In this document: positions 2,975-12,098 of the stretch, in pieces
How positions within the stretch are numbered: the first letter of the stretch is position 1
Layout of the letters: every line of letters begins with the position of its first letter
Source of the DNA: a virus
Taxonomy: Duplodnaviria > Heunggongvirae > Uroviricota > Caudoviricetes
Reading direction: 5' to 3' (one strand)
IMG/VR virus record: IMGVR_UViG_2671180864_000006
Length of the DNA: 31,147 nt
The notes under the pieces: generated by a model
Told to the model about the DNA's origin: nothing
Database searches by the model: none
What the model saw: only the letters and a program-made list of their open reading frames with translations
Position numbers and translations under genes: made by a program

Positions 2975-3000
2975 AAAAGAAAAAAGGCCGCAGAGCGGCC
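2975..3000 (-). terminator. Rho-independent terminator for the leftward int-cargo transcript
   Basis: Perfect GC hairpin GGCCGC-AGA-GCGGCC (2986-3000) preceded on the plus strand by an A-run (2975-2985), which is a U-tract after the hairpin on the minus strand; lies about 110 bp downstream of the 3110-3664 ORF and just upstream of btuC. Confidence 0.55.
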
Positions 3001-3109
3001 ATAAACACAAACAAAAATCAATAAGTTAGGTAATTATCAAAGACTTACAGACACACAAAAACACAGCCAACCACAACAAATAACAGAGATGTGGTCAATT
3101 TGTGGATCA

Positions 3110-3664
3110 TCAGCCAACAAATTTAGCAACAAATACAGCAACCGCCGCTGTGAAAATGGTTGTGCACACTGGCACAATAATGCCACTCCAACGCCACTTC
3201 GTATTATCATCAACCTTGTCAAACCGCCGATTCATCTCATCCATAATCTTGTCAAAGCGTTTATCCATCGCTTCGGTAAGCTCACCCTTCAGGCTGTTAA
3301 TGTCTGATTTGAGCTGCTCTTTCAGGTTAGCTGTATCAGATTTAAGCTCACCTTTCAGATTCGCAATATCGCATTCAAGATCACCTTTCAGATGTGCTAT
3401 GTCTGCTTTGAGTTCACCTTTCACCTCACCAACATCGGCTTTAGTTGAGAGGTTTGTAGTGCGTTCAGCAAGCGTCGCAAGGTCGTTTCTTGTTAGCGAT
3501 AAATCACCTTCGAGCCGCTCAATTCGCCTTTCAAGTTTATCTGACATTCCGCCTCCACTACTGCCGCCATCGCCACCATGATAAAGCACATCACGCTCAG
3601 AATGCGACACACTACCTGCTGAATTACCGAAAAGATTTCTTGCTACATTACCCATTATCACCAT
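3110..3664 (-). CDS. Coiled-coil protein with C-terminal transmembrane anchor (XhlA-like architecture), prophage cargo
   Basis: 184-aa ORF: Gly/Ser-rich N-terminus, five tandem 11-residue repeats (e.g. KADIAHLKGDL, ECDIANLKGEL), then a hydrophobic C-terminal helix (IIVPVCTTIFTAAVAVFVAKFV). AT-rich. Overlaps the upstream ORF by 17 nt. Start could be 3664 or 3655. Confidence 0.6.
   Translation of the reverse strand: MVIMGNVARNLFGNSAGSVSHSERDVLYHGGDGGSSGGGMSDKLERRIERLEGDLSLTRNDLATLAERTTNLSTKADVGEVKGELKADIAHLKGDLECDIANLKGELKSDTANLKEQLKSDINSLKGELTEAMDKRFDKIMDEMNRRFDKVDDNTKWRWSGIIVPVCTTIFTAAVAVFVAKFVG
3280..3444. repeat. Five tandem imperfect 33-bp repeats inside the 3110-3664 ORF
   Basis: Units recur with 33-bp period (plus-strand motif CACCTTTCAG...GATTT); they encode the 11-aa coiled-coil repeats. 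Confidence 0.75.
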
Positions 3665-4148
3665 CCTGCGCTTTGTCTTTCTCCAACCACTTCAGCACCG
3701 CAGACGTACGATAAAGGCTCAGGTAACCACAATTCAGGCAATGCAGCGTGTAATAAGTTTTGCGCATATCAGGTATGCTCTTAACATCACCCAAAAAAGC
3801 ATAAGATACATAATGCTTTATGTTCTCTTTAATTAACTCACTCTGTTCCTCCAGGGGTAGATTGTTAAAATTTTCTGGTTTCTTATTTTTATCCCAGCAA
3901 AGATCCATACTTTCTGGAACAGATAATCGCGACGATCCACATGAAGGGCAGACACTGGAGACCCCCTTCTCAGACAAGAAACGGAAGAAGATTTCTGGCG
4001 TAATCTCCATCAGCCGCTCTTTATGTTTTTTGACACGACTCATCGACTTCTTATTGATTTCATCAGCTTCTTCTTTGCATTTATCTTCTATATATTTCGA
4101 TAGTAAATAGTCATATAACTCTTTTTTTGTAGGTTTTTTTATTTCCAT
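3648..4148 (-). CDS. Hypothetical zinc-ribbon protein, prophage cargo
   Basis: 166-aa ORF with a basic Lys-rich N-terminus and two Cys pairs (CPSCG ... CLNCG); very AT-rich; its ATG (4148) lies within a few bases of the int stop, suggesting translational coupling. Confidence 0.6.
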   Translation of the reverse strand: MEIKKPTKKELYDYLLSKYIEDKCKEEADEINKKSMSRVKKHKERLMEITPEIFFRFLSEKGVSSVCPSCGSSRLSVPESMDLCWDKNKKPENFNNLPLEEQSELIKENIKHYVSYAFLGDVKSIPDMRKTYYTLHCLNCGYLSLYRTSAVLKWLEKDKAQDGDNG

Positions 4149-4150
4149 AG

Positions 4151-5128
4151 TTACATTCCTCCCAAGGGATTAAACCTCACCGCATCCTGCAAGTAATCCG
4201 GCGCAAGATGGGCATAAATCATCGTTGTCTGAATCTTTGCGTGCCCCAGAATTTTCTGGAGCGTCAGAATATTGCCGCCGTTCATCATGAAATGACTGGC
4301 GAAGGTGTGGCGCAGCGCATGAACAGCCTGGCCGTCAGGAACATCAGGTGCGACCGTTTTGATGACATCGCGAACCAATGAATAATCCAGCGTCGGAAAC
4401 ACCAGTTTCCCGCCCCGTTTTTTGATCTTTTCAAACAGGCTTTCAGAAATAGGAACGGTACGGTTTTTGCTGTTCTTCGTTTTTGAAAAAGTGATTCGAC
4501 AATGAAGAACACGGCGCTGCTCCAGTGCCGCTACCTCGCCCCATCGCGCCCCGGTCGACAGAAGGATTTCGACGGCCAGCCGTTCATCGGGATTTTCAGC
4601 CAGTGCATCCAGCAACTGAACACATTCAGACTTACTCAGATATCCCATTTCACGCTCGTTAACCTTCATTCCTTTAAGGCCTTGAACGGGGTTATCGTTA
4701 AGAAAATGGCCGGATGAGATGAGTGCGGTAAACATCGCGCTTAACGCCCCAATCTCTCGATTTATGGTGCTGGGCTGTATCCCCTGCTCTATCCTGGACA
4801 CACGTAGCTCGGTGAGCATCGTTGTATTAAGTTTATGCACGCACGGGTCATCCATTGCCTCACTCAAGCGCAGCAATTTAAGGCGCGTGTTATGCCCTGA
4901 CTTCATTAGCTGGCCGTGGTATTTCCACCACAAGTCAATAAGCACTGACAGCGGACGGCGATCAATGGAGTTTCCTTTCCACTCATTGTTATGCTGTTGC
5001 GCCAGCACCCACCGCTCATATAAAACTGCATCCGATTTCGTTTTAAATTTTTTGCGAATGCGTTTGCCTTTACGCCCCTCAGGACGCATGTCAAGAAGAT
5101 ACCCTCCCGGAATTGATTTTATGCTCAT
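4151..5128 (-). CDS. int: P2-type tyrosine integrase
   Basis: Strong similarity to P2 Int as recalled, from MSIKS... onward; catalytic motifs ARWGE, HALRHTFAS and the C-terminal catalytic Tyr region (LGHAKIQTTMIYAHL). The ORF track's 50-aa N-terminal extension (to 5278) is judged spurious. Confidence 0.92.
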   Translation of the reverse strand: MSIKSIPGGYLLDMRPEGRKGKRIRKKFKTKSDAVLYERWVLAQQHNNEWKGNSIDRRPLSVLIDLWWKYHGQLMKSGHNTRLKLLRLSEAMDDPCVHKLNTTMLTELRVSRIEQGIQPSTINREIGALSAMFTALISSGHFLNDNPVQGLKGMKVNEREMGYLSKSECVQLLDALAENPDERLAVEILLSTGARWGEVAALEQRRVLHCRITFSKTKNSKNRTVPISESLFEKIKKRGGKLVFPTLDYSLVRDVIKTVAPDVPDGQAVHALRHTFASHFMMNGGNILTLQKILGHAKIQTTMIYAHLAPDYLQDAVRFNPLGGM

Positions 5129-5177
5129 TCGTGAAGCCCCAGCGTTACAAGACCACCATGCCCCCAGCGTTCCATGA

Positions 5178-5489
5178 TTAGCCGGGCTGTGTGCCAGTCT
5201 TGCGGGATTTTTGAGAAGACGATGTGTTTTCTGGCCCATCAGGGGAGAGAGAAGGACTGATCTGCCCAGCAGCCTCATTTGTTTCGTTACTCATCAACCA
5301 CGTAGTGTATTTTTTAAATTCCGGGTGCATTGTGATTTTCAGTAAAACCTCCGTTCCCACACCTCGAATACCAGTCTCGTATTGCTTAACCGTACCAACC
5401 GCAATACCTATTGAATCCGCGAACTTTGCCTGACTAAGCCCCTCAGATTCTCGAATTGCTTTTAGCTTCTTTGATATCTCTATTGACAT
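5178..5489 (-). CDS. Immunity repressor, P2 C-like (HTH)
   Basis: 104 aa from MSIEISKK; HTH region (LSQAKFADSIGIAVGTVKQYETG) and overall layout resemble P2 C; sits immediately upstream of int on the same strand, as in P2. Confidence 0.75.
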   Translation of the reverse strand: MSIEISKKLKAIRESEGLSQAKFADSIGIAVGTVKQYETGIRGVGTEVLLKITMHPEFKKYTTWLMSNETNEAAGQISPSLSPDGPENTSSSQKSRKTGTQPG

Positions 5490-7923: not shown

Positions 7924-10746
7924 ATGACGGCAGAGTACATCAGGGACTGGCAACAACCGCGCCACGCAGTGGGGCGTGAAGGAACGGGGATCCCCGCTCC
8001 TGAATCCGCGCTTTCCTCCTGGCTGGATGCCCACCGGGCAGAGAACGAGCGCCGCCAGGAAATGGCTGATGCGGCGTTCTCCGCCACGCCACTGGGCAAC
8101 CTGATTAATAAAAGCCTGGACGCACAGGAAAAACAGGACAAAACCATCACACTGGCAGGAGACGCCAGAAAACAGGCACGCGGCGCGGTGGATGAAGCCA
8201 TGGCCTCGCTGCGCCTGCTGCCGTCCTATCTGCGCGATCCGCTTATTCGCCACCTCTCCTTCCTGCGCAAAAAACAGGAAGCCGATCGCCGGAAAGGCAA
8301 AAAGAGCTGGCAGGCGGAACGCTATGCACGCGGAACCCTGCGCAAAATATTCGAACGTCTGGATCGCACTGACGGACACTGGCTGACACCGGGTTATCGC
8401 TCCCTTGCCGGACGTGAACGCCTGGACGATTTGCTTTACCTGCCGCAACTCAACAAACACCAGATACAGACGCTGGCCACCATGACGGCGGCGATGTTCA
8501 GCAGCACCTTCGAAAAACTCTGCGATGGTTTTGGCGCGACTGATGGCGAGCTGACCATGGATGTAACGCTGAAGGCGTATCAGATGCTGGCCCGCATGGC
8601 GTTACACTTACACGCCATGCCTCCGCATTATGACGCACTGACAACAGACAAAGACCGGAGGCACGAACCGGACACAGAACTGCTGCCGGGCGCAATCCTT
8701 CGCCTGACCTGTGCGGAATGGTGGAAACGCAAACTGTGGCTGTTACGTTGCGAGTGGAGAGAAGAACAACTTCGCGCCGCCTGTCTGGTTTCCAGAAAAA
8801 CATCGCCCTATCTGAGCCAGGACGCGTTAAGCGAGTTTCGCGCACAGCGCGAGAAAACACGCGATTTCCTGAAAAGTTTCATGCTGGAAAATGAAGACGG
8901 GTTCACGATTGATCTCGAGACGGTGTATTACGCGGGAGTAAGTAACCCGGTTCACCGTAAGGCAGAAATGATGGCCACCATGAAGGGGCTGGAACTTCTG
9001 GCCGAAGCCCGTGGCGACAAAGCGGTGTTTCTGACTGTCACCTGCCCGTCAAAATACCACGCCACAACGGAGAACGGTCATCCGAATCCCAAATGGAACG
9101 GGGCCACAATGCGCGACTCCAGCGATTACCTGGTTAACACGTTTTTTGCGACGGTCCGCAAAAAACTGAACCGCGACGGCCTGCGCTGGTATGGCATCCG
9201 CACGGCGGAGCCTCACCATGACGGCACCGTGCACTGGCATATGATGGTCTTTGCTCATCCGGAAGAAATCGACACCATTGTGTCCCACACCCGCGATATT
9301 GCCATTCAGGAAGATCGTCACGAGCTGGGCGATGACATAACTCCGCGCTTTAAGGCGGAGTATGTAGACGGCTCAAAAGGCACGCCAACCAGCTACATCG
9401 CCACCTACATCGGGAAAAACCTGGACAGCCGCGCCGTGGATGGCATCGACCCGAAAACGGGCAAGCCACGCGTTGACCACGAAACCGGAAAATCAATGGC
9501 CGAGAGCGTGGAACGCGCCATCGGCTGGGCGCGCCTTCACCGGGTCCGCCAGTTCCAGTTCTTTGGCATCCCCTCCCGCCAGGTATGGCGTGAACTGCGC
9601 CGCCTTGCCAGCCAGATGGCACGCAACCCGGAAGGCCCGCAACGGCTGAAGGATGACGCAATGGATGCGGTTCTTGCCGCCGCTGATGCCGGATGTTTTG
9701 CCACCTACATAGAGAAACAGGGCGGCGTACTTGTTCCACGCAAAGACTACCTGATTCGCACCGCCTACGACCTCGCCGATGAGCTGAACGATTACGGCGA
9801 ACAGAGCGTACAGATTTACGGGATCTGGTCACCACTCATCGGGGAATCCTCCCGTGTGTGCACGCATCCGGATAACTGGAAGCTGGTAAGACGCAAACCG
9901 GAAGCGGAAGACAGCGCCCGCGAAAATGGTTTTGACCTTCAGGGCGGCCCTGCCGCCCCTTGGACTCGTGGCAATAACTGTCCCCGTGTACAGGAAACGG
10001 ACAACAACGGGACAGAACAGCCGGAAGAACGGCCAGCACCGTGGCCGCAGCTCCCTGACGGCGTTGATGTGGATGAATGGATGCGCTCACTGAAACGGCA
10101 CGAACGCCGGGCGCTGATGCGTTCGCTTCGTGACAAACAGGCAAAAAACAGCAGTGATGAAATGCAGAGCTGGACACAGAGCCGCAAACAGCAGCGGCCT
10201 TTGCCTGATAACCACGAATTACTCGCTAAAGAATGGCGGGAGTCTGCTGAATCTCTCGGCCTGCATATCGGTGAACAACAGATGCAGCACCTGTTACGGG
10301 GCGGCAGTCTGTACGTTGACGGCAGCATCATTGCACCGCAGGGATTTGAAATTGTACGCAAACCGGATACCCGCCCGGACAGCCGAATCACGCAGCTCTG
10401 GCAGCGCCTGAGCCGTAATCATGGCGTAAGCAGCACGGAGATCCGCCATAACCCGGTCGCCAGCTATCTGACACAGCTGGGGGCATCAGACCCTGAAGCC
10501 GCCGCACGCCTGGCATCCACACTTCAGCAGGACCAGAACACCATGAAAACACCCGTTACCGTGCTTTCTGACATGCTGCGCGCCATCCGCGACGCAGAGC
10601 ACGCACAGAGAATCAGTGAAACCACTGAACGCGCCCGCCGCAAAGCAGACCTGCTGCGGGGTGGCCTGACCAGTGGAAACAAAAAACAGACAGAAACGGG
10701 ACTCACGAATCCCGTAAATGAGCAAAAAACGCGCAGCGATATATGA
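7924..10746 (+). CDS. A: Replication initiation endonuclease, P2 gpA-like (rolling-circle HUH)
   Basis: 940-aa ORF with HUH motif (GTVHWHMMVFA) and paired-tyrosine motif (SYIATYIGKN); carries a long low-complexity C-terminal region that makes it longer than P2 gpA as recalled. Confidence 0.88.
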   Translation: MTAEYIRDWQQPRHAVGREGTGIPAPESALSSWLDAHRAENERRQEMADAAFSATPLGNLINKSLDAQEKQDKTITLAGDARKQARGAVDEAMASLRLLPSYLRDPLIRHLSFLRKKQEADRRKGKKSWQAERYARGTLRKIFERLDRTDGHWLTPGYRSLAGRERLDDLLYLPQLNKHQIQTLATMTAAMFSSTFEKLCDGFGATDGELTMDVTLKAYQMLARMALHLHAMPPHYDALTTDKDRRHEPDTELLPGAILRLTCAEWWKRKLWLLRCEWREEQLRAACLVSRKTSPYLSQDALSEFRAQREKTRDFLKSFMLENEDGFTIDLETVYYAGVSNPVHRKAEMMATMKGLELLAEARGDKAVFLTVTCPSKYHATTENGHPNPKWNGATMRDSSDYLVNTFFATVRKKLNRDGLRWYGIRTAEPHHDGTVHWHMMVFAHPEEIDTIVSHTRDIAIQEDRHELGDDITPRFKAEYVDGSKGTPTSYIATYIGKNLDSRAVDGIDPKTGKPRVDHETGKSMAESVERAIGWARLHRVRQFQFFGIPSRQVWRELRRLASQMARNPEGPQRLKDDAMDAVLAAADAGCFATYIEKQGGVLVPRKDYLIRTAYDLADELNDYGEQSVQIYGIWSPLIGESSRVCTHPDNWKLVRRKPEAEDSARENGFDLQGGPAAPWTRGNNCPRVQETDNNGTEQPEERPAPWPQLPDGVDVDEWMRSLKRHERRALMRSLRDKQAKNSSDEMQSWTQSRKQQRPLPDNHELLAKEWRESAESLGLHIGEQQMQHLLRGGSLYVDGSIIAPQGFEIVRKPDTRPDSRITQLWQRLSRNHGVSSTEIRHNPVASYLTQLGASDPEAAARLASTLQQDQNTMKTPVTVLSDMLRAIRDAEHAQRISETTERARRKADLLRGGLTSGNKKQTETGLTNPVNEQKTRSDI

Positions 10747-10822: not shown

Positions 10823-11782
10823 ATGAAAATTTGTATCGACGACGGCTCCACCAACATCAAGCTGGCATGGACTGAGAACGGCGAACGCCGCAACGCCATC
10901 AGCCCGAACAGCTTCAAGTCGGAATGGTCTGCGCCGTTCGGTGGCATGCAGCCCGCGAACTACATGCTTGATGGCGTGCGCTATGGTTTTGATCCGGTCA
11001 GCGATCGCTTTGTCCAGACAACCGACACGCAATACCAGTACAGCGATGTAAATGTCATTGCCATTCATCACGCGCTGGTCAAATCAGGCATCACGCCACA
11101 GGAGGTGGATGTGGTTGTCACCCTGCCACTGAGCGAGTATTTCGACACAAACGCACAGCCGGACATGGCCAACATCAACCGCAAAAAAGCGAACGTTATG
11201 CGCCCGGTGGAGTACCAGAACGGCGAAGCATTCACTATCCGTAACGTGCGGGTTATGCCTGAATCCATTCCGGCTGGCTTTAAGGCACTGGCTGACATGA
11301 GTCCGTTTGAATCCCTGCTGATTGTGGATTTGGGCGGAACCACGCTGGATGTGGCAAAGGTTCAGGGGCAACTGGCAGGTATCAGCCAGGTGTTTTGCGA
11401 TCCACACGTAGGCGTTTCTCTGATGGCCGATGCCGTACTGTCGGTGATGGCCACTAACGGTATGCGCACCAGTCACCACATCGCCAATACCATTATCGAA
11501 CATCGCCATGATGAAGCCTGGCTGCGCCAGCACATCCACAATGACGCGCATTACGCCAGCCTGATGGCGGTTATTCGTGAAAAGGAAGAAACACTGAAAC
11601 AACGCGTGATCCGCGCGCTGGCGGGTTTTTCGGGTTACGGGCGGGTGATGGTTGTCGGTGGAGGGGCGGAGATTGTGGCACCCGCTATCCGCGAAGCCTG
11701 CGGAGTTAATGCGACTTTCATCGCGGACGGGGTGCCACAGTTTGCTCTGGTTAATGGGCTGTACGCAATGGACAAGGAGTAA
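10823..11782 (+). CDS. parM: Actin-like segregation ATPase, ParM/StbA family
   Basis: 319-aa ORF with actin-fold phosphate-1 (ICIDDGSTNIKL), phosphate-2 (IVDLGGTTLDV) and adenosine (VMVVGGGAEI) motifs, plus several short blocks matching plasmid R1 ParM as recalled (SPNSFK, YSDVNV, INRKK, LVNGLY). Confidence 0.8.
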   Translation: MKICIDDGSTNIKLAWTENGERRNAISPNSFKSEWSAPFGGMQPANYMLDGVRYGFDPVSDRFVQTTDTQYQYSDVNVIAIHHALVKSGITPQEVDVVVTLPLSEYFDTNAQPDMANINRKKANVMRPVEYQNGEAFTIRNVRVMPESIPAGFKALADMSPFESLLIVDLGGTTLDVAKVQGQLAGISQVFCDPHVGVSLMADAVLSVMATNGMRTSHHIANTIIEHRHDEAWLRQHIHNDAHYASLMAVIREKEETLKQRVIRALAGFSGYGRVMVVGGGAEIVAPAIREACGVNATFIADGVPQFALVNGLYAMDKE

Positions 11783-11786
11783 ACCA

Positions 11787-12098
11787 ATGACGACACCAAC
11801 CAGACGGATAAGTTTCTATCTGAAGCCTGCGGCCGTCAAGAACGAAAGCGAAGCATGCGCCTGGCTGGGCAGCCTTACACCAGAAGCCCGCAAAAGCGGC
11901 CAACGCGTGGCTTTTCTGGCCGGGCTGGCACTTCTGAAAATGAATCCAGCAGAGGCTTACCGACTGGCTGCATGGGCTGACGATGAGGCGTTATCGGTGA
12001 CACAAACCAGGACAGAACGCCCCGTGCCACAGCCAGTACCAACCGCACAGATAACCAGTCAGATAGCAGGGAATATCCGGGCATTATTTCCTGAATGA
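11787..12098 (+). CDS. parR: ParR/StbB-like small DNA-binding adaptor
   Basis: 103 aa from the ATG 5 nt after the parM stop, with AAGGAG RBS; resembles ParR in size and N-terminal pattern (ISFYLKP, RVAFLAGLAL), from memory. The track's 148-aa form overlaps parM and is rejected. Confidence 0.55.
   Translation: MTTPTRRISFYLKPAAVKNESEACAWLGSLTPEARKSGQRVAFLAGLALLKMNPAEAYRLAAWADDEALSVTQTRTERPVPQPVPTAQITSQIAGNIRALFPE

What the first reader, a model, noticed from the sequence alone, without database searches (positions are those of the whole stretch)
3280..3444. Five tandem 33-bp repeats encoding 11-residue repeats in the membrane-anchored cargo protein
The repeat is visible directly in the DNA and translates to 11-mers with conserved L-K-G-(E/D)-L spacing, the periodicity typical of amphipathic membrane-binding helices. 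Tandem coding repeats can also expand or contract by slippage, which would give length variation between strains.
Basis: seen in the sequence. Interest (0 to 1): 0.4.

Follow-up and report, generated by a model that had tools for sequence, protein, structure and literature searches.

The report
Hendecad stalk repeats in prophage membrane protein
The five 33-bp repeats are real and encode 11-residue units whose number varies between strains, but they most likely build the rigid coiled-coil stalk of a tail-anchored prophage protein of the known DUF1640/Bdr kind, not a membrane-binding amphipathic helix.

Summary
Observation confirmed. Five in-frame 33-bp units (minus strand, 3281-3445) encode residues 74-128 of ORF 3110-3664. 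Protein lag-11 identity is 34/99, never reached in 20,000 shuffles.

The length-variation prediction is confirmed. Near-identical homologues carry 2 to 7 whole units. The DNA junctions of the 3-, 4- and 6-unit alleles lie in or beside short repeats shared between units. The 5-unit allele dominates in complete E. coli genomes, so this is slow variation, not a hypervariable locus.

The membrane-binding interpretation is not supported. Large hydrophobic residues form a narrow 65° stripe flanked by invariant Asp and Lys. Net charge is -3 and the hydrophobic moment is low.

The register reads heptads, then L-S-T-K-A-D (the β-layer neck motif of DUF1640), then seven hendecads, then a C-terminal membrane helix. 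The best solved-structure match, 6H9L, has its own 11-residue repeats. Borrelia Bdr proteins share nearly the same unit.

The protein is a headless DUF1640/CCDC90-like, Bdr-like tail-anchored protein. It appears translationally coupled to a conserved zinc-ribbon ORF and lies between integrase and att of a P2-like prophage. Its biological function remains unknown.

The parts
3110..3664 (-). Full ORF, 184 aa from ATG 3664 (181 aa from ATG 3655). NCBI's PGAP pipeline annotates only the 145 aa from M40 (ATG 3547) as 'DUF1640 domain-containing protein'.
   Evidence: The long form is supported by an open frame in four diverged versions, pN/pS of 0.43, substitutions concentrated at third codon positions, and a Shine-Dalgarno plus GTG start directly after the upstream stop codon in relatives.
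3545..3664 (-). N-terminal extension (residues 1-40): a variable peptide plus a Gly-rich linker (GGDGGSSGGG), predicted disordered.
   Evidence: AF2 pLDDT 33-47 and no secondary structure. The linker is conserved between two different N-terminal peptide types.
3452..3544 (-). N-terminal helix in heptad register (residues 41-71).
   Evidence: Large hydrophobic residues at 6 of 9 a/d positions against 1 of 22 elsewhere. AF2 models a helix here.
3434..3451 (-). β-layer neck motif L72-S-T-K-A-D77, in the canonical abc-βββ-efg frame.
   Evidence: The motif [aliphatic]-A-T-K-[polar]-[DE] is described for DUF1640 in PMC4786415. T, K and D are invariant in alignments A1 and A2. The AF2 helix breaks exactly here, with pLDDT below 50.
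3281..3445 (-). The finding itself: five tandem 33-bp units encoding residues 74-128.
3203..3433 (-). Inferred hendecad coiled-coil stalk: seven 11-residue turns of register, residues 78-154, about 11.5 nm.
   Evidence: Large hydrophobic residues at 20 of 28 a/d/e/h positions against 1 of 49 elsewhere. AF2 gives one continuous helix, with pLDDT 79-87 in the repeats.
3203..3268 (-). Second type of 11-residue unit, two copies (MDKRFDKIMDE / MNRRFDKVDDN). One sub-clade of homologues has a single copy.
3381..3393 (-). 13-bp exact repeat ATCTGAAAGGTGA, copy 1. Copy 2 is 33 bp away at 3348-3360.
   Evidence: The 4-unit allele L014 is exactly the product of recombination within this repeat.
3348..3360 (-). 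13-bp exact repeat ATCTGAAAGGTGA, copy 2.
3125..3187 (-). C-terminal membrane helix (residues 160-180), preceded by the invariant Trp157. Only KFVG follows it.
   Evidence: Kyte-Doolittle 19-residue windows reach up to 2.43. K+R count is 5 on the N-terminal side and 1 on the C-terminal side. AF2 models a helix. W is invariant.
3648..4148 (-). Partner ORF (166 aa) with invariant CxxCG...CxxCG, a zinc-ribbon-like motif. Its stop codon overlaps the start of the repeat protein.
   Evidence: (phrog_4293). AF2 pLDDT 82.8. No significant fold match.
4151..5278 (-). P2-type tyrosine integrase, immediately upstream on the same strand.
   Evidence: Pfam Int_N and Phage_integrase. RefSeq annotation.
2986..3000 (-). 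Terminator-like hairpin GGCCGC-TCT-GCGGCC followed by a T run. It is the strongest terminator-like hairpin downstream of the gene: 6 G-C pairs and a clean T run.
   Evidence: Two weaker matches also scored: one at 4405-4387 inside the integrase gene and one at 3151-3135 inside this ORF. The scan's total was only about twice the shuffle mean.

Best explanation
The five 33-bp units encode hendecads, 11 residues spanning three helical turns. These form most of the coiled-coil stalk of a tail-anchored inner-membrane protein.

Read from the N-terminus, the protein has:
- a disordered peptide and a Gly-rich linker;
- a heptad coiled coil;
- a β-layer neck (L-S-T-K-A-D);
- seven hendecads, five of them the repeat in question;
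- a Trp, then a single C-terminal membrane helix.

By analogy with the DUF1640/CCDC90 family, the stalk is a parallel homotrimer that projects the N-terminal part into the cytoplasm, about 11 nm from the membrane.

Because the whole stalk is in 11-residue register, gain or loss of one unit changes its length by about 1.6 nm without rotating the two ends relative to each other. Whole-unit indels are therefore tolerated. They arise by unequal recombination or slippage between the short sequence repeats that the units share (ATCTGAAAGGTGA and relatives).

The gene appears translationally coupled to a zinc-ribbon ORF. It lies downstream of the integrase at the att-proximal end of a P2-like prophage, so it is probably expressed in the lysogen.

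Shown here: the repeat, the register, the motif, the anchor, the allelic series and its junctions, and the family relations.
Inferred: the trimeric state, the cytoplasmic orientation, expression in the lysogen, and any biological role.
For: Repeat and its statistics.

Register:
- Heptad a/d positions hold large hydrophobic residues at 6 of 9 positions, against 1 of 22 elsewhere.
- The heptads run exactly into abc-LST-KAD.
- Hendecad a/d/e/h positions score 20 of 28, against 1 of 49 elsewhere.

Neck motif:
- The β-layer motif and its place at the start of the DUF1640 stalk come from PMC4786415. All the β-layer proteins found there were homotrimers, except the SLH domain.
- T74, K75, D77 and W157 are invariant across homologues.

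Structure prediction: the AF2 monomer breaks only at LSTK and before the membrane helix. It keeps one continuous helix through all the repeats, at its highest confidence.

Family relations:
- The family profile's best PDB match is 6H9L (E 2.8e-4, three chains), with 11-residue repeats ATKEDIEALRK after MATKED. Next is the Tcar0761 β-layer construct 5APZ.
- Relatives pass Pfam's threshold for PF07798. P0078 does so over the full length, including the head.
- Borrelia Bdr shares the unit: LKSDIMSVKSD against LKSDINSLKGE. Pairwise BLASTP gives E 4e-13 and tblastn E about 3e-6.
- Among 139 short representatives, lag 11 is the best period in 123, and 109 have a C-terminal membrane segment.

Allelic series: 2 to 7 units. 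Junctions lie in or beside the short repeats shared between units.

Context: the module is conserved in E. coli, Salmonella and Klebsiella at two different integration sites.
Against: - No oligomer could be modelled or measured here. AF2 was a monomer run with an overall pLDDT of 60.5.
- The query itself scores below Pfam's threshold for PF07798 (24-25 against 33.5 bits) and lacks the family's head domain.
- The PDB matches are marginal (E 2.8e-4 and 4e-3) and concern repetitive, compositionally biased sequence.
- A Gly in almost every unit, and a face of small residues (A/S/G at positions 3, 6 and 10) opposite the hydrophobic stripe, are unexplained by a simple trimer.
- Topology rests only on the lack of a signal peptide and on charge balance.
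- Co-transcription is not firmly established. The terminator scan also scored weaker hairpins at 4405-4387, between the repressor promoter region and the gene, and at 3151-3135 inside the ORF.
Confidence: 0.72

Rival explanations
1. One reading: the 11-mers are amphipathic helices that lie on or insert into the membrane, like the repeats of apolipoproteins, alpha-synuclein or perilipins. They would add membrane binding or permeabilisation to the anchored protein.
For: - The 11-residue period is the one used by that class.
- Pfam's top-ranked, sub-threshold hit is the Apolipoprotein domain.
- The protein is membrane-anchored, so the helices are held near a bilayer.
- The alternation of hydrophobic or small residues with polar ones gives two faces.
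Against: - The Apolipoprotein score is 25.8 bits against a threshold of 90.
- The large-hydrophobic stripe spans only 65°.
- One interface position is an invariant Asp.
- Net charge is -3, which is unfavourable on an anionic bacterial inner membrane.
- Hydrophobic moment is 0.15 and mean hydrophobicity -0.13, lower than the alpha-synuclein reference.
- The array starts at a β-layer motif that the eLife survey found almost only in homotrimers, and it continues a heptad coiled coil in phase.
- The family includes proteins with a folded head on top of the same repeats (P0078). That fits a stalk, not a surface-lying helix.
Confidence: 0.08
2. Every unit, not only the first, forms a β-layer. The array would then be an alpha/beta coiled coil, a fibre in which short strands alternate with short helices, as in the Tcar0761 nonad repeats.
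For: - Each unit keeps K-x-D at the same place as the neck motif T-K-x-D.
- The profile matches the Tcar0761 construct 5APZ, and 6H9L repeats ATKED every 11 residues.
- A conserved Gly precedes each K-x-D.
Against: - Only the first unit has the [aliphatic]-[A/S]-T part of the motif. Later units have G-E-L instead.
- According to PMC4786415, β-layers arise from insertions of 2 or 6 residues. An insertion of 4 (7+4 = 11) is absorbed as a helical hendecad.
- AF2 keeps one continuous helix through the units and breaks only at LSTK.
Confidence: 0.1
3. The array is a fast contingency locus. Frequent slippage would switch stalk length within populations, for instance to vary an exposed antigen or a receptor.
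For: Copy number ranges from 2 to 7 among near-identical genes, and different units were duplicated independently in different lineages. Bdr repeat numbers also differ between Borrelia strains (PMC3303823).
Against: - 35 of the 39 complete E. coli genomes that carry the gene align to at least 80% of it, and every hit listed aligns without a length change over its matched span.
- The 5-unit cluster is by far the largest: 98 member sequences, while the 6-unit cluster and each of the four 170-aa 4-unit clusters hold one.
- Units are only 50-75% identical in DNA, and the longest exact repeat is 13 bp.
- All changes keep the reading frame, so there is no on/off switching.
- The stalk is probably cytoplasmic, not exposed.
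Confidence: 0.05

Closest known systems
DUF1640 / CCDC90-like family (Pfam PF07798): human MCUR1 and CCDC90B and their prokaryotic relatives. From my own recollection of Adlakha et al., Structure 2019 (not held in the library), these are trimeric 'head-neck-stalk-anchor' membrane proteins.
   Same: - β-layer neck motif at the start of the stalk.
- Coiled-coil stalk.
- Single C-terminal membrane helix.
- RefSeq already names the gene 'DUF1640 domain-containing' or 'CCDC90 family protein'.
- Relatives reached by the family profile pass Pfam's threshold.
   Different: - No head domain: Pfam profile positions 1-67 are unmatched. In their place are a heptad helix, a Gly-rich linker and a short disordered peptide.
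- The query scores 24-25 bits against a threshold of 33.5.
- It is prophage-borne and paired with a zinc-ribbon ORF.
- Nothing links it to calcium uniporter biology.
Borrelia Bdr (Borrelia direct repeat) proteins of cp32 prophages and linear plasmids
   Same: - Nearly the same 11-residue unit: LKSDIMSVKSD against LKSDINSLKGE.
- Tandem array of variable copy number between strains.
- C-terminal hydrophobic anchor.
- Inner-membrane association.
- Carried on prophages.
- Function unknown.
   Different: - The conserved Bdr N-terminal domain (NCBIfam NF040499) is present in Bdr at 80 bits. It is not detected in this protein.
- Different phylum and a different phage type.
- Bdr genes are multi-copy paralogues, whereas this gene occurs once per genome.
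PDB 6H9L (uncharacterised protein, three chains) and the Tcar0761 β-layer constructs (5APZ)
   Same: Best sequence-profile matches among solved structures. Both have M-A-T-K-[ED]-D followed by short tandem repeats. 6H9L repeats every 11 residues, with K, D, I, L and R/K at the same unit positions as here.
   Different: - The E-values are marginal (2.8e-4 and 4e-3).
- Tcar0761 repeats are 9 residues, and each forms a β-layer.
- Later units here have lost the A-T of the motif.
- I could not inspect the coordinates.
Amphipathic 11-mer repeat proteins (apolipoprotein A-I/A-IV/E, alpha-synuclein)
   Same: 11-residue period and helix-favouring composition. Sub-threshold Pfam and PDB hits.
   Different: Narrow hydrophobic stripe, acidic net charge, low hydrophobic moment, a trimer-type neck motif and a membrane anchor.

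Membership tests
DUF1640 / CCDC90-like (PF07798) | Score at or above Pfam's gathering threshold (33.5 bits) | tested here: not met
   The query scores 24.1 bits (184-aa form) or 25.1 bits (145-aa form) over profile positions 68-171. Relatives P0051 (46.1), P0078 (49.3) and Bdr (45.1) pass. P0024 scores 33.1.
DUF1640 / CCDC90-like (PF07798) | N-terminal head domain (profile positions 1 to about 67) | tested here: not met
   There is no match to that part of the profile. AF2 shows a disordered 1-36 followed by a single helix. P0078 shows what a head-bearing relative looks like.
DUF1640 / CCDC90-like (PF07798) | β-layer neck motif [aliphatic]-A-T-K-[polar]-[DE] at the start of the stalk | tested here: met
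   L72-S-T-K-A-D77, with Ser in place of Ala. T, K and D are invariant in 19 and 37 homologues. It sits in the canonical abc-βββ-efg frame. The motif definition comes from PMC4786415.
DUF1640 / CCDC90-like (PF07798) | Coiled-coil stalk ending in one C-terminal membrane helix | tested here: met
   Hendecad core occupancy is 20 of 28 against 1 of 49 elsewhere. The membrane segment is residues 160-180. AF2 models the helices.
DUF1640 / CCDC90-like (PF07798) | Parallel homotrimer | not testable with these tools
   Only monomer prediction was available. The trimer is inferred from the β-layer motif and from the three chains in 6H9L.
Borrelia Bdr family | Conserved Bdr N-terminal domain (NCBIfam NF040499 Bdr_N_group1) | tested here: not met
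   B. miyamotoi Bdr scores 80.2 bits. The query shows no hit to it in the NCBIfam scan.
Borrelia Bdr family | Central tandem 11-residue repeats, with copy number differing between strains | tested here: met
   Unit comparison. Copy number of 2 to 7 here. For Bdr, about 9 against about 6 repeats in otherwise 99.4% identical orthologues (PMC3303823).
Borrelia Bdr family | C-terminal hydrophobic anchor and inner-membrane location | tested here: inconclusive
   The anchor is present in the sequence. Location was not measured. For Bdr it is reported in PMC10016077.
Amphipathic 11-mer lipid-binding repeats (Apolipoprotein, PF01442) | Score at or above Pfam's gathering threshold (90 bits) | tested here: not met
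   25.8-26.4 bits.
Amphipathic 11-mer lipid-binding repeats (Apolipoprotein, PF01442) | Broad hydrophobic face with basic residues at the interface, and a high hydrophobic moment | tested here: not met
   65° stripe, Asp4 on one flank, net charge -3, hydrophobic moment 0.15.
Known anti-phage defence systems (PADLOC-DB 2.0) | Significant match of either gene of the pair to a defence-system protein model | tested here: not met
   Only weak coiled-coil noise was found: ZorA, LmuB and LeoBC at 14-21 bits over their coiled-coil parts. There was one weak hit for the partner.

The most novel reading that the evidence does not exclude
The zinc-ribbon ORF and the Bdr-like trimeric stalk protein may together form an uncharacterised lysogen-expressed module, such as a superinfection-exclusion or anti-phage system. 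It would sit in the minor integrase-att defence hotspot of P2-like phages. Stalk length, set by the hendecad number, would tune the distance at which something is held or sensed below the inner membrane. The same ancient module class would then explain the long-unexplained Bdr proteins of Borrelia cp32 prophages.
Probability: 0.15. Interest if true: 0.6.

Novelty: new member of a known kind. Interest (0 to 1): 0.3.

Why it matters
For the finding itself, the result is mostly a correction. An 11-residue period next to a membrane anchor does not by itself mean a lipid-binding helix. Here it is the signature of a hendecad stalk in an already named family.

Three points of modest value remain:
- The allelic series, with defined junctions in or beside short shared repeats, is a clean natural example of a coiled-coil stalk that changes length in 1.6-nm quanta while keeping register.
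- The near-identical unit in Borrelia Bdr proteins ties a 25-year-old orphan family of spirochaete prophage proteins to enterobacterial P2-like prophages and to DUF1640. That offers a tractable E. coli model for their function.
- The gene pair occupies a locus recently reported as a minor defence hotspot of P2-like phages. It matches no known defence model, so it is a reasonable candidate for a phage-challenge screen.

Tried and rejected
- Single-sequence search of solved structures: nothing below E 0.06. Only the family profile reached 6H9L.
- PADLOC scan of both genes: only coiled-coil noise.
- PHROGs: both genes fall in families of unknown function, phrog_9415 and phrog_4293.
- Genome-contig scan: only two loci, because it holds one genome per species.
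- Primary Bdr papers (PMC2640845, PMC116504, PMC101917) and the Structure 2019 paper behind 6H9L are not held. Statements on them rest on secondary citations or on my memory, and are marked so.
- A fold search with the repeat protein's own model was not run. A single long helix at pLDDT 60 would give meaningless matches.
- I considered a holin or XhlA-like lysis role: weak phrog_689 holin and PF10779 hits appear. I rejected it as unsupported. The scores are marginal, and the gene lies in the lysogeny end of the prophage, not in the lysis cassette.
- I considered PGAP's short start (M40) as the true start. It cannot be excluded, because a GGAGG lies 4 nt upstream. The conserved open frame, pN/pS of 0.43 and the stop-start junctions favour the long form, or possibly both.
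Full report
**1. The observation**

The window opens with chromosomal nlpC-btuD-btuE-btuC on the minus strand. A prophage begins right after btuC.

Laid out in register, residues 74-128 are five 11-residue units encoded by 33-bp units at 3281-3445: TKADVGEVKGE, LKADIAHLKGD, LECDIANLKGE, LKSDTANLKEQ, LKSDINSLKGE.

- Tandem Repeats Finder reports the most similar core: 3319-3423, period 33, 3.2 copies, 75% matches, score 105.
- DNA identity at lag 33 is 0.51, against about 0.24 at neighbouring lags.
- Protein identity at lag 11 is 34 of 99, and the best of 20,000 shuffles reached 22.

The coordinates are one base out of register.

**2. Copy number does vary, in whole units**

A search of 5.8 billion proteins returned 55 relatives whose lengths fall on ladders with steps of 11 residues. 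Counting units between the conserved flanks gives 2, 3, 4, 5, 6 and 7 units in proteins that are otherwise 80-100% identical.

Different units were duplicated independently in different lineages:
- LKADIAHLKGE three times in P0024 and P0029;
- FKCDIANLKSE twice in P0024 and P0028;
- LSADLAQVKGG four times in a Salmonella relative, P0032.

I fetched DNA for three alleles.
- The 4-unit allele is exactly the product of recombination inside the 13-bp exact repeat ATCTGAAAGGTGA shared by units 2 and 3 (3381-3393 and 3348-3360).
- The 3-unit allele has lost 66 bp across the 10-bp repeat TGAAAGGTGA.
- The 6-unit allele carries a chimeric extra unit: the start of unit 4 joined to the rest of unit 3. 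Its junction lies just past the GGTGAGCTT shared at the unit boundaries.
- Every variant keeps the reading frame.

The variation is slow.
- Among 5,426 complete E. coli genomes, only 39 carry the gene.
- 35 of those align to at least 80% of it, and every hit listed aligns without a length change over its matched span.
- The 5-unit cluster is by far the most populated.

**3. What the protein is**

RefSeq calls it 'DUF1640 domain-containing protein' or 'CCDC90 family protein'.

Pfam's CCDC90-like model matches only from profile position 68 onwards, at 24-25 bits, below the 33.5-bit threshold. The reason is that the protein has no head domain. Relatives do pass the threshold: P0051 with 46 bits, P0078 with 49 bits over the whole profile including the head, and a Borrelia Bdr protein with 45 bits.

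The eLife paper on alpha/beta coiled coils describes DUF1640 as membrane proteins that carry the β-layer motif [aliphatic]-A-T-K-[polar]-[DE] at the start of their C-terminal stalk. It notes that all the β-layer proteins it found are homotrimers, apart from the SLH domain (PMC4786415).

This protein has L72-S-T-K-A-D77 exactly where the repeat array starts. T, K, D and the Trp before the membrane segment are the invariant columns of alignment A1, and all four remain invariant in A2, which adds R44 and E49 of the N-terminal helix.

**4. Register**

- Residues 41-71 follow a heptad pattern. Large hydrophobic residues fill 6 of 9 a/d positions, against 1 of 22 elsewhere.
- The heptads end as a-b-c (T69-T70-N71), directly before L-S-T. 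This is the canonical abc-βββ-efg frame of the published β-layers.
- After K-A-D (efg), seven hendecads run from V78 to N154. Large hydrophobic residues fill 20 of 28 a/d/e/h positions, against 1 of 49 elsewhere.
The last two are a second unit type (MDKRFDKIMDE / MNRRFDKVDDN), which is single-copy in one sub-clade.
- Then come W157 and a membrane helix at 160-180 followed only by KFVG. There are five K/R on the N-terminal side and one on the C-terminal side.

An AF2 monomer model agrees (37-sequence alignment, mean pLDDT 60.5):
- the first 36 residues are disordered;
- a helix follows;
- there is a break with pLDDT below 50 exactly at L-S-T-K;
- one continuous helix runs through all the repeats, the most confident part at pLDDT 79-87;
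- a second break is followed by the membrane helix.

**5. Amphipathic membrane binder or stalk?**

On an 11/3 helical wheel:
- unit positions 1, 5 and 8 (L, I/V/T, L) lie at 0°, 33° and 327°, a 65° stripe;
- invariant Asp4 (295°) and invariant Lys9 (65°) flank that stripe;
- small residues (A/S/C, A/G/N, G) fill the opposite face.

The array has net charge -3, a mean Eisenberg hydrophobicity of -0.13 and a moment of 0.15. Alpha-synuclein 1-95 gives +3, +0.15 and 0.28.

Pfam's Apolipoprotein hit is 25.8 bits against a threshold of 90.

A narrow stripe with one acidic flank on an acidic segment is poorly suited to lying on an anionic inner membrane. It is what a hendecad core with interhelical Asp-Lys pairs looks like.

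I therefore read the repeats as stalk, not as a lipid-binding surface. That reading rests on sequence geometry and family analogy. No oligomer was modelled or measured.

**6. Relatives with the same unit**

- *6H9L.* A profile of 19 homologues finds PDB 6H9L as best match (E 2.8e-4, three chains). Its sequence reads MATKEDIEALRK-ATKEDIEDLRE-ATKEDIEALRK..., an 11-residue repeat with K, D, I, L and R/K at the same unit positions as here. Next come the Tcar0761 β-layer constructs. From memory, 6H9L is the archaeal 'head-neck-stalk-anchor' protein of Adlakha et al. 2019. That paper is not held, so I could not check how its repeats fold.
- *Bdr.* A tblastn search of plasmids hits Borrelia 'Bdr family repetitive protein' genes at E about 3e-6 over 77-81% of the query. 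B. miyamotoi Bdr has a conserved N-terminal domain, then LKSDIMSVKSD repeats, then a C-terminal hydrophobic tail. Pairwise BLASTP gives E 4e-13. [quoted passage not shown] They differ in repeat number between strains, and their function is unknown (PMC3303823 and PMC10016077). The Bdr N-terminal domain model is not detected in the E. coli protein. It is Bdr-like, not a Bdr.
- *Family breadth.* An exhaustive profile search finds 3,818 cluster representatives at E ≤ 1e-3. Among the 139 short ones in the top 150, lag 11 is the best period in 123, 109 have a C-terminal membrane segment, and 102 have [ST]-K-x-[DE].

The hendecad array is a family hallmark, not a peculiarity of this gene.

**7. Context**

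The prophage is P2-like:
- integrase;
- HTH repressor;
- replication protein GPA at 7924-10746;
- large ORFs in the P2 late-gene arrangement further on. I did not scan these against family libraries, so the portal, terminase, capsid and tail assignments are inferred from order and size only.

The repeat gene is the last gene before the prophage end. Homology to a Klebsiella prophage integrated at a different site stops about 20 nt after its stop codon.

Upstream on the same strand, and tightly packed, lie the integrase (stop at 4151) and a 166-aa ORF (3648-4148). The stop codon of that ORF overlaps the start of the repeat gene. The strongest terminator-like hairpin lies downstream at 2986-3000. 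Weaker matches also scored at 4405-4387, inside the integrase gene, and at 3151-3135, inside the ORF itself.

The same order (repressor, integrase, small ORF, repeat protein, prophage end) recurs in E. coli and Salmonella at btuC and in Klebsiella next to the alanine racemase gene. The small ORFs are homologous, with invariant CxxCG...CxxCG. In the Salmonella locus the copy is present but uncalled. In three relatives a Shine-Dalgarno sequence plus GTG sits directly after the partner's stop codon.

The 37-codon N-terminal extension has pN/pS of 0.43 and 13 of 24 substitutions at third positions. Its frame is open in four diverged versions, while the other two frames carry 1-8 stops. I therefore favour the long form over PGAP's M40 start. 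The GGAGG inside the Gly-rich linker leaves room for a second, internal start.

The partner folds confidently (pLDDT 82.8) but has no significant structural relative and no family with a known function.

A 2026 survey reports the integrase-att interval of P2-like prophages as a minor defence hotspot, holding 3% of P2 systems (PMC13586616). Neither gene matches a PADLOC model.

**8. Mechanism, with steps marked**

Shown:
- coding 11-residue repeats;
- a heptad, β-layer motif and hendecad register;
- a C-terminal anchor;
- whole-unit allelic variation, with junctions in or beside short shared repeats;
- family links to DUF1640 and Bdr;
- a conserved two-gene module at the att-proximal end of P2-like prophages.

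Inferred:
- a parallel trimer;
- the N-terminus in the cytoplasm;
- a stalk of about 11.5 nm that changes by about 1.6 nm per unit, from 6.6 to 14.8 nm for 2 to 7 units, without altering the phase between neck and anchor;
- expression in the lysogen together with integrase.

Unknown: what the protein and its partner do.

**9. Verdict**

The membrane-binding interpretation is probably wrong.

The gene is a headless member of an already named family, and its repeat architecture is known from Bdr proteins and from a solved archaeal relative. Interest is modest. The useful residue is the Bdr link and the uncharacterised gene pair in a defence-prone prophage locus.

Noticed in passing
window 3648-4148 (-): A conserved 166-aa ORF with invariant CxxCG...CxxCG (zinc-ribbon-like). 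Its stop codon overlaps the start of the repeat protein. Homologues of 129-166 aa precede the repeat gene in E. coli, Salmonella and Klebsiella prophages, and further homologues occur in Providencia. The AF2 model is confident (pLDDT 82.8), but there is no significant fold or family match. It belongs to phrog_4293, function unknown.
   Followed up: partly
window 10823-12098 (+): The main P2 accessory hotspot, between replication gene A and the large minus-strand ORFs I take to be portal and terminase, carries a plasmid-type partition pair: a ParM/StbA actin-like ATPase (PF06406 and PF21523, E 1e-82 and 1e-68) and a StbB-like 'Plasmid_stab_B' protein. This is unexpected in an integrated P2-like prophage. 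No PADLOC hits for this ORF or the neighbouring ORFs.
   Followed up: partly
window 3545-3664 (-): NCBI's PGAP pipeline starts the gene at M40 (ATG 3547), which is preceded by GGAGG. Other callers use the long form. Coding signal and stop-start junctions support the long form. Two starts giving long and short isoforms cannot be excluded.
   Followed up: partly
window 3203-3268 (-): A second kind of 11-residue unit (MDKRFDKIMDE / MNRRFDKVDDN) is duplicated here. It is single-copy in a sub-clade of homologues (for example P0020 and P0022-P0030). The stalk therefore also varies in length at its membrane-proximal end.
   Followed up: partly
proteins P0074 (3006 aa), P0084, P0135, P0149, P0215: Very long proteins (1,200-3,000 aa) match the family profile many times over. 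P0074 has long runs of an 11-residue unit, LRGEIDSNxxT, after a non-repetitive N-terminal part, and looks like a fibre or adhesin. The hendecad unit is thus also used outside the small tail-anchored proteins.
   Followed up: no
window 7924-10746 (+): The replication protein is 940 aa, but only residues 179-503 match the Phage_GPA domain. The long C-terminal part (about 440 aa) has no Pfam match at E ≤ 0.001.
   Followed up: no
window 3000-3110: The 111 bp between the gene's stop codon and the terminator hairpin occur in 301 of 5,426 complete E. coli genomes. The repeat gene itself occurs in only 39. Many related prophages therefore share this end but carry other or no cargo next to the integrase.
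   Followed up: no
L008 4600-5000 (Salmonella locus): The partner ORF is intact in frame (MKPPKFDDYPHLGRDW...WEEI) but was not called as a gene in the source annotation.
   Followed up: yes
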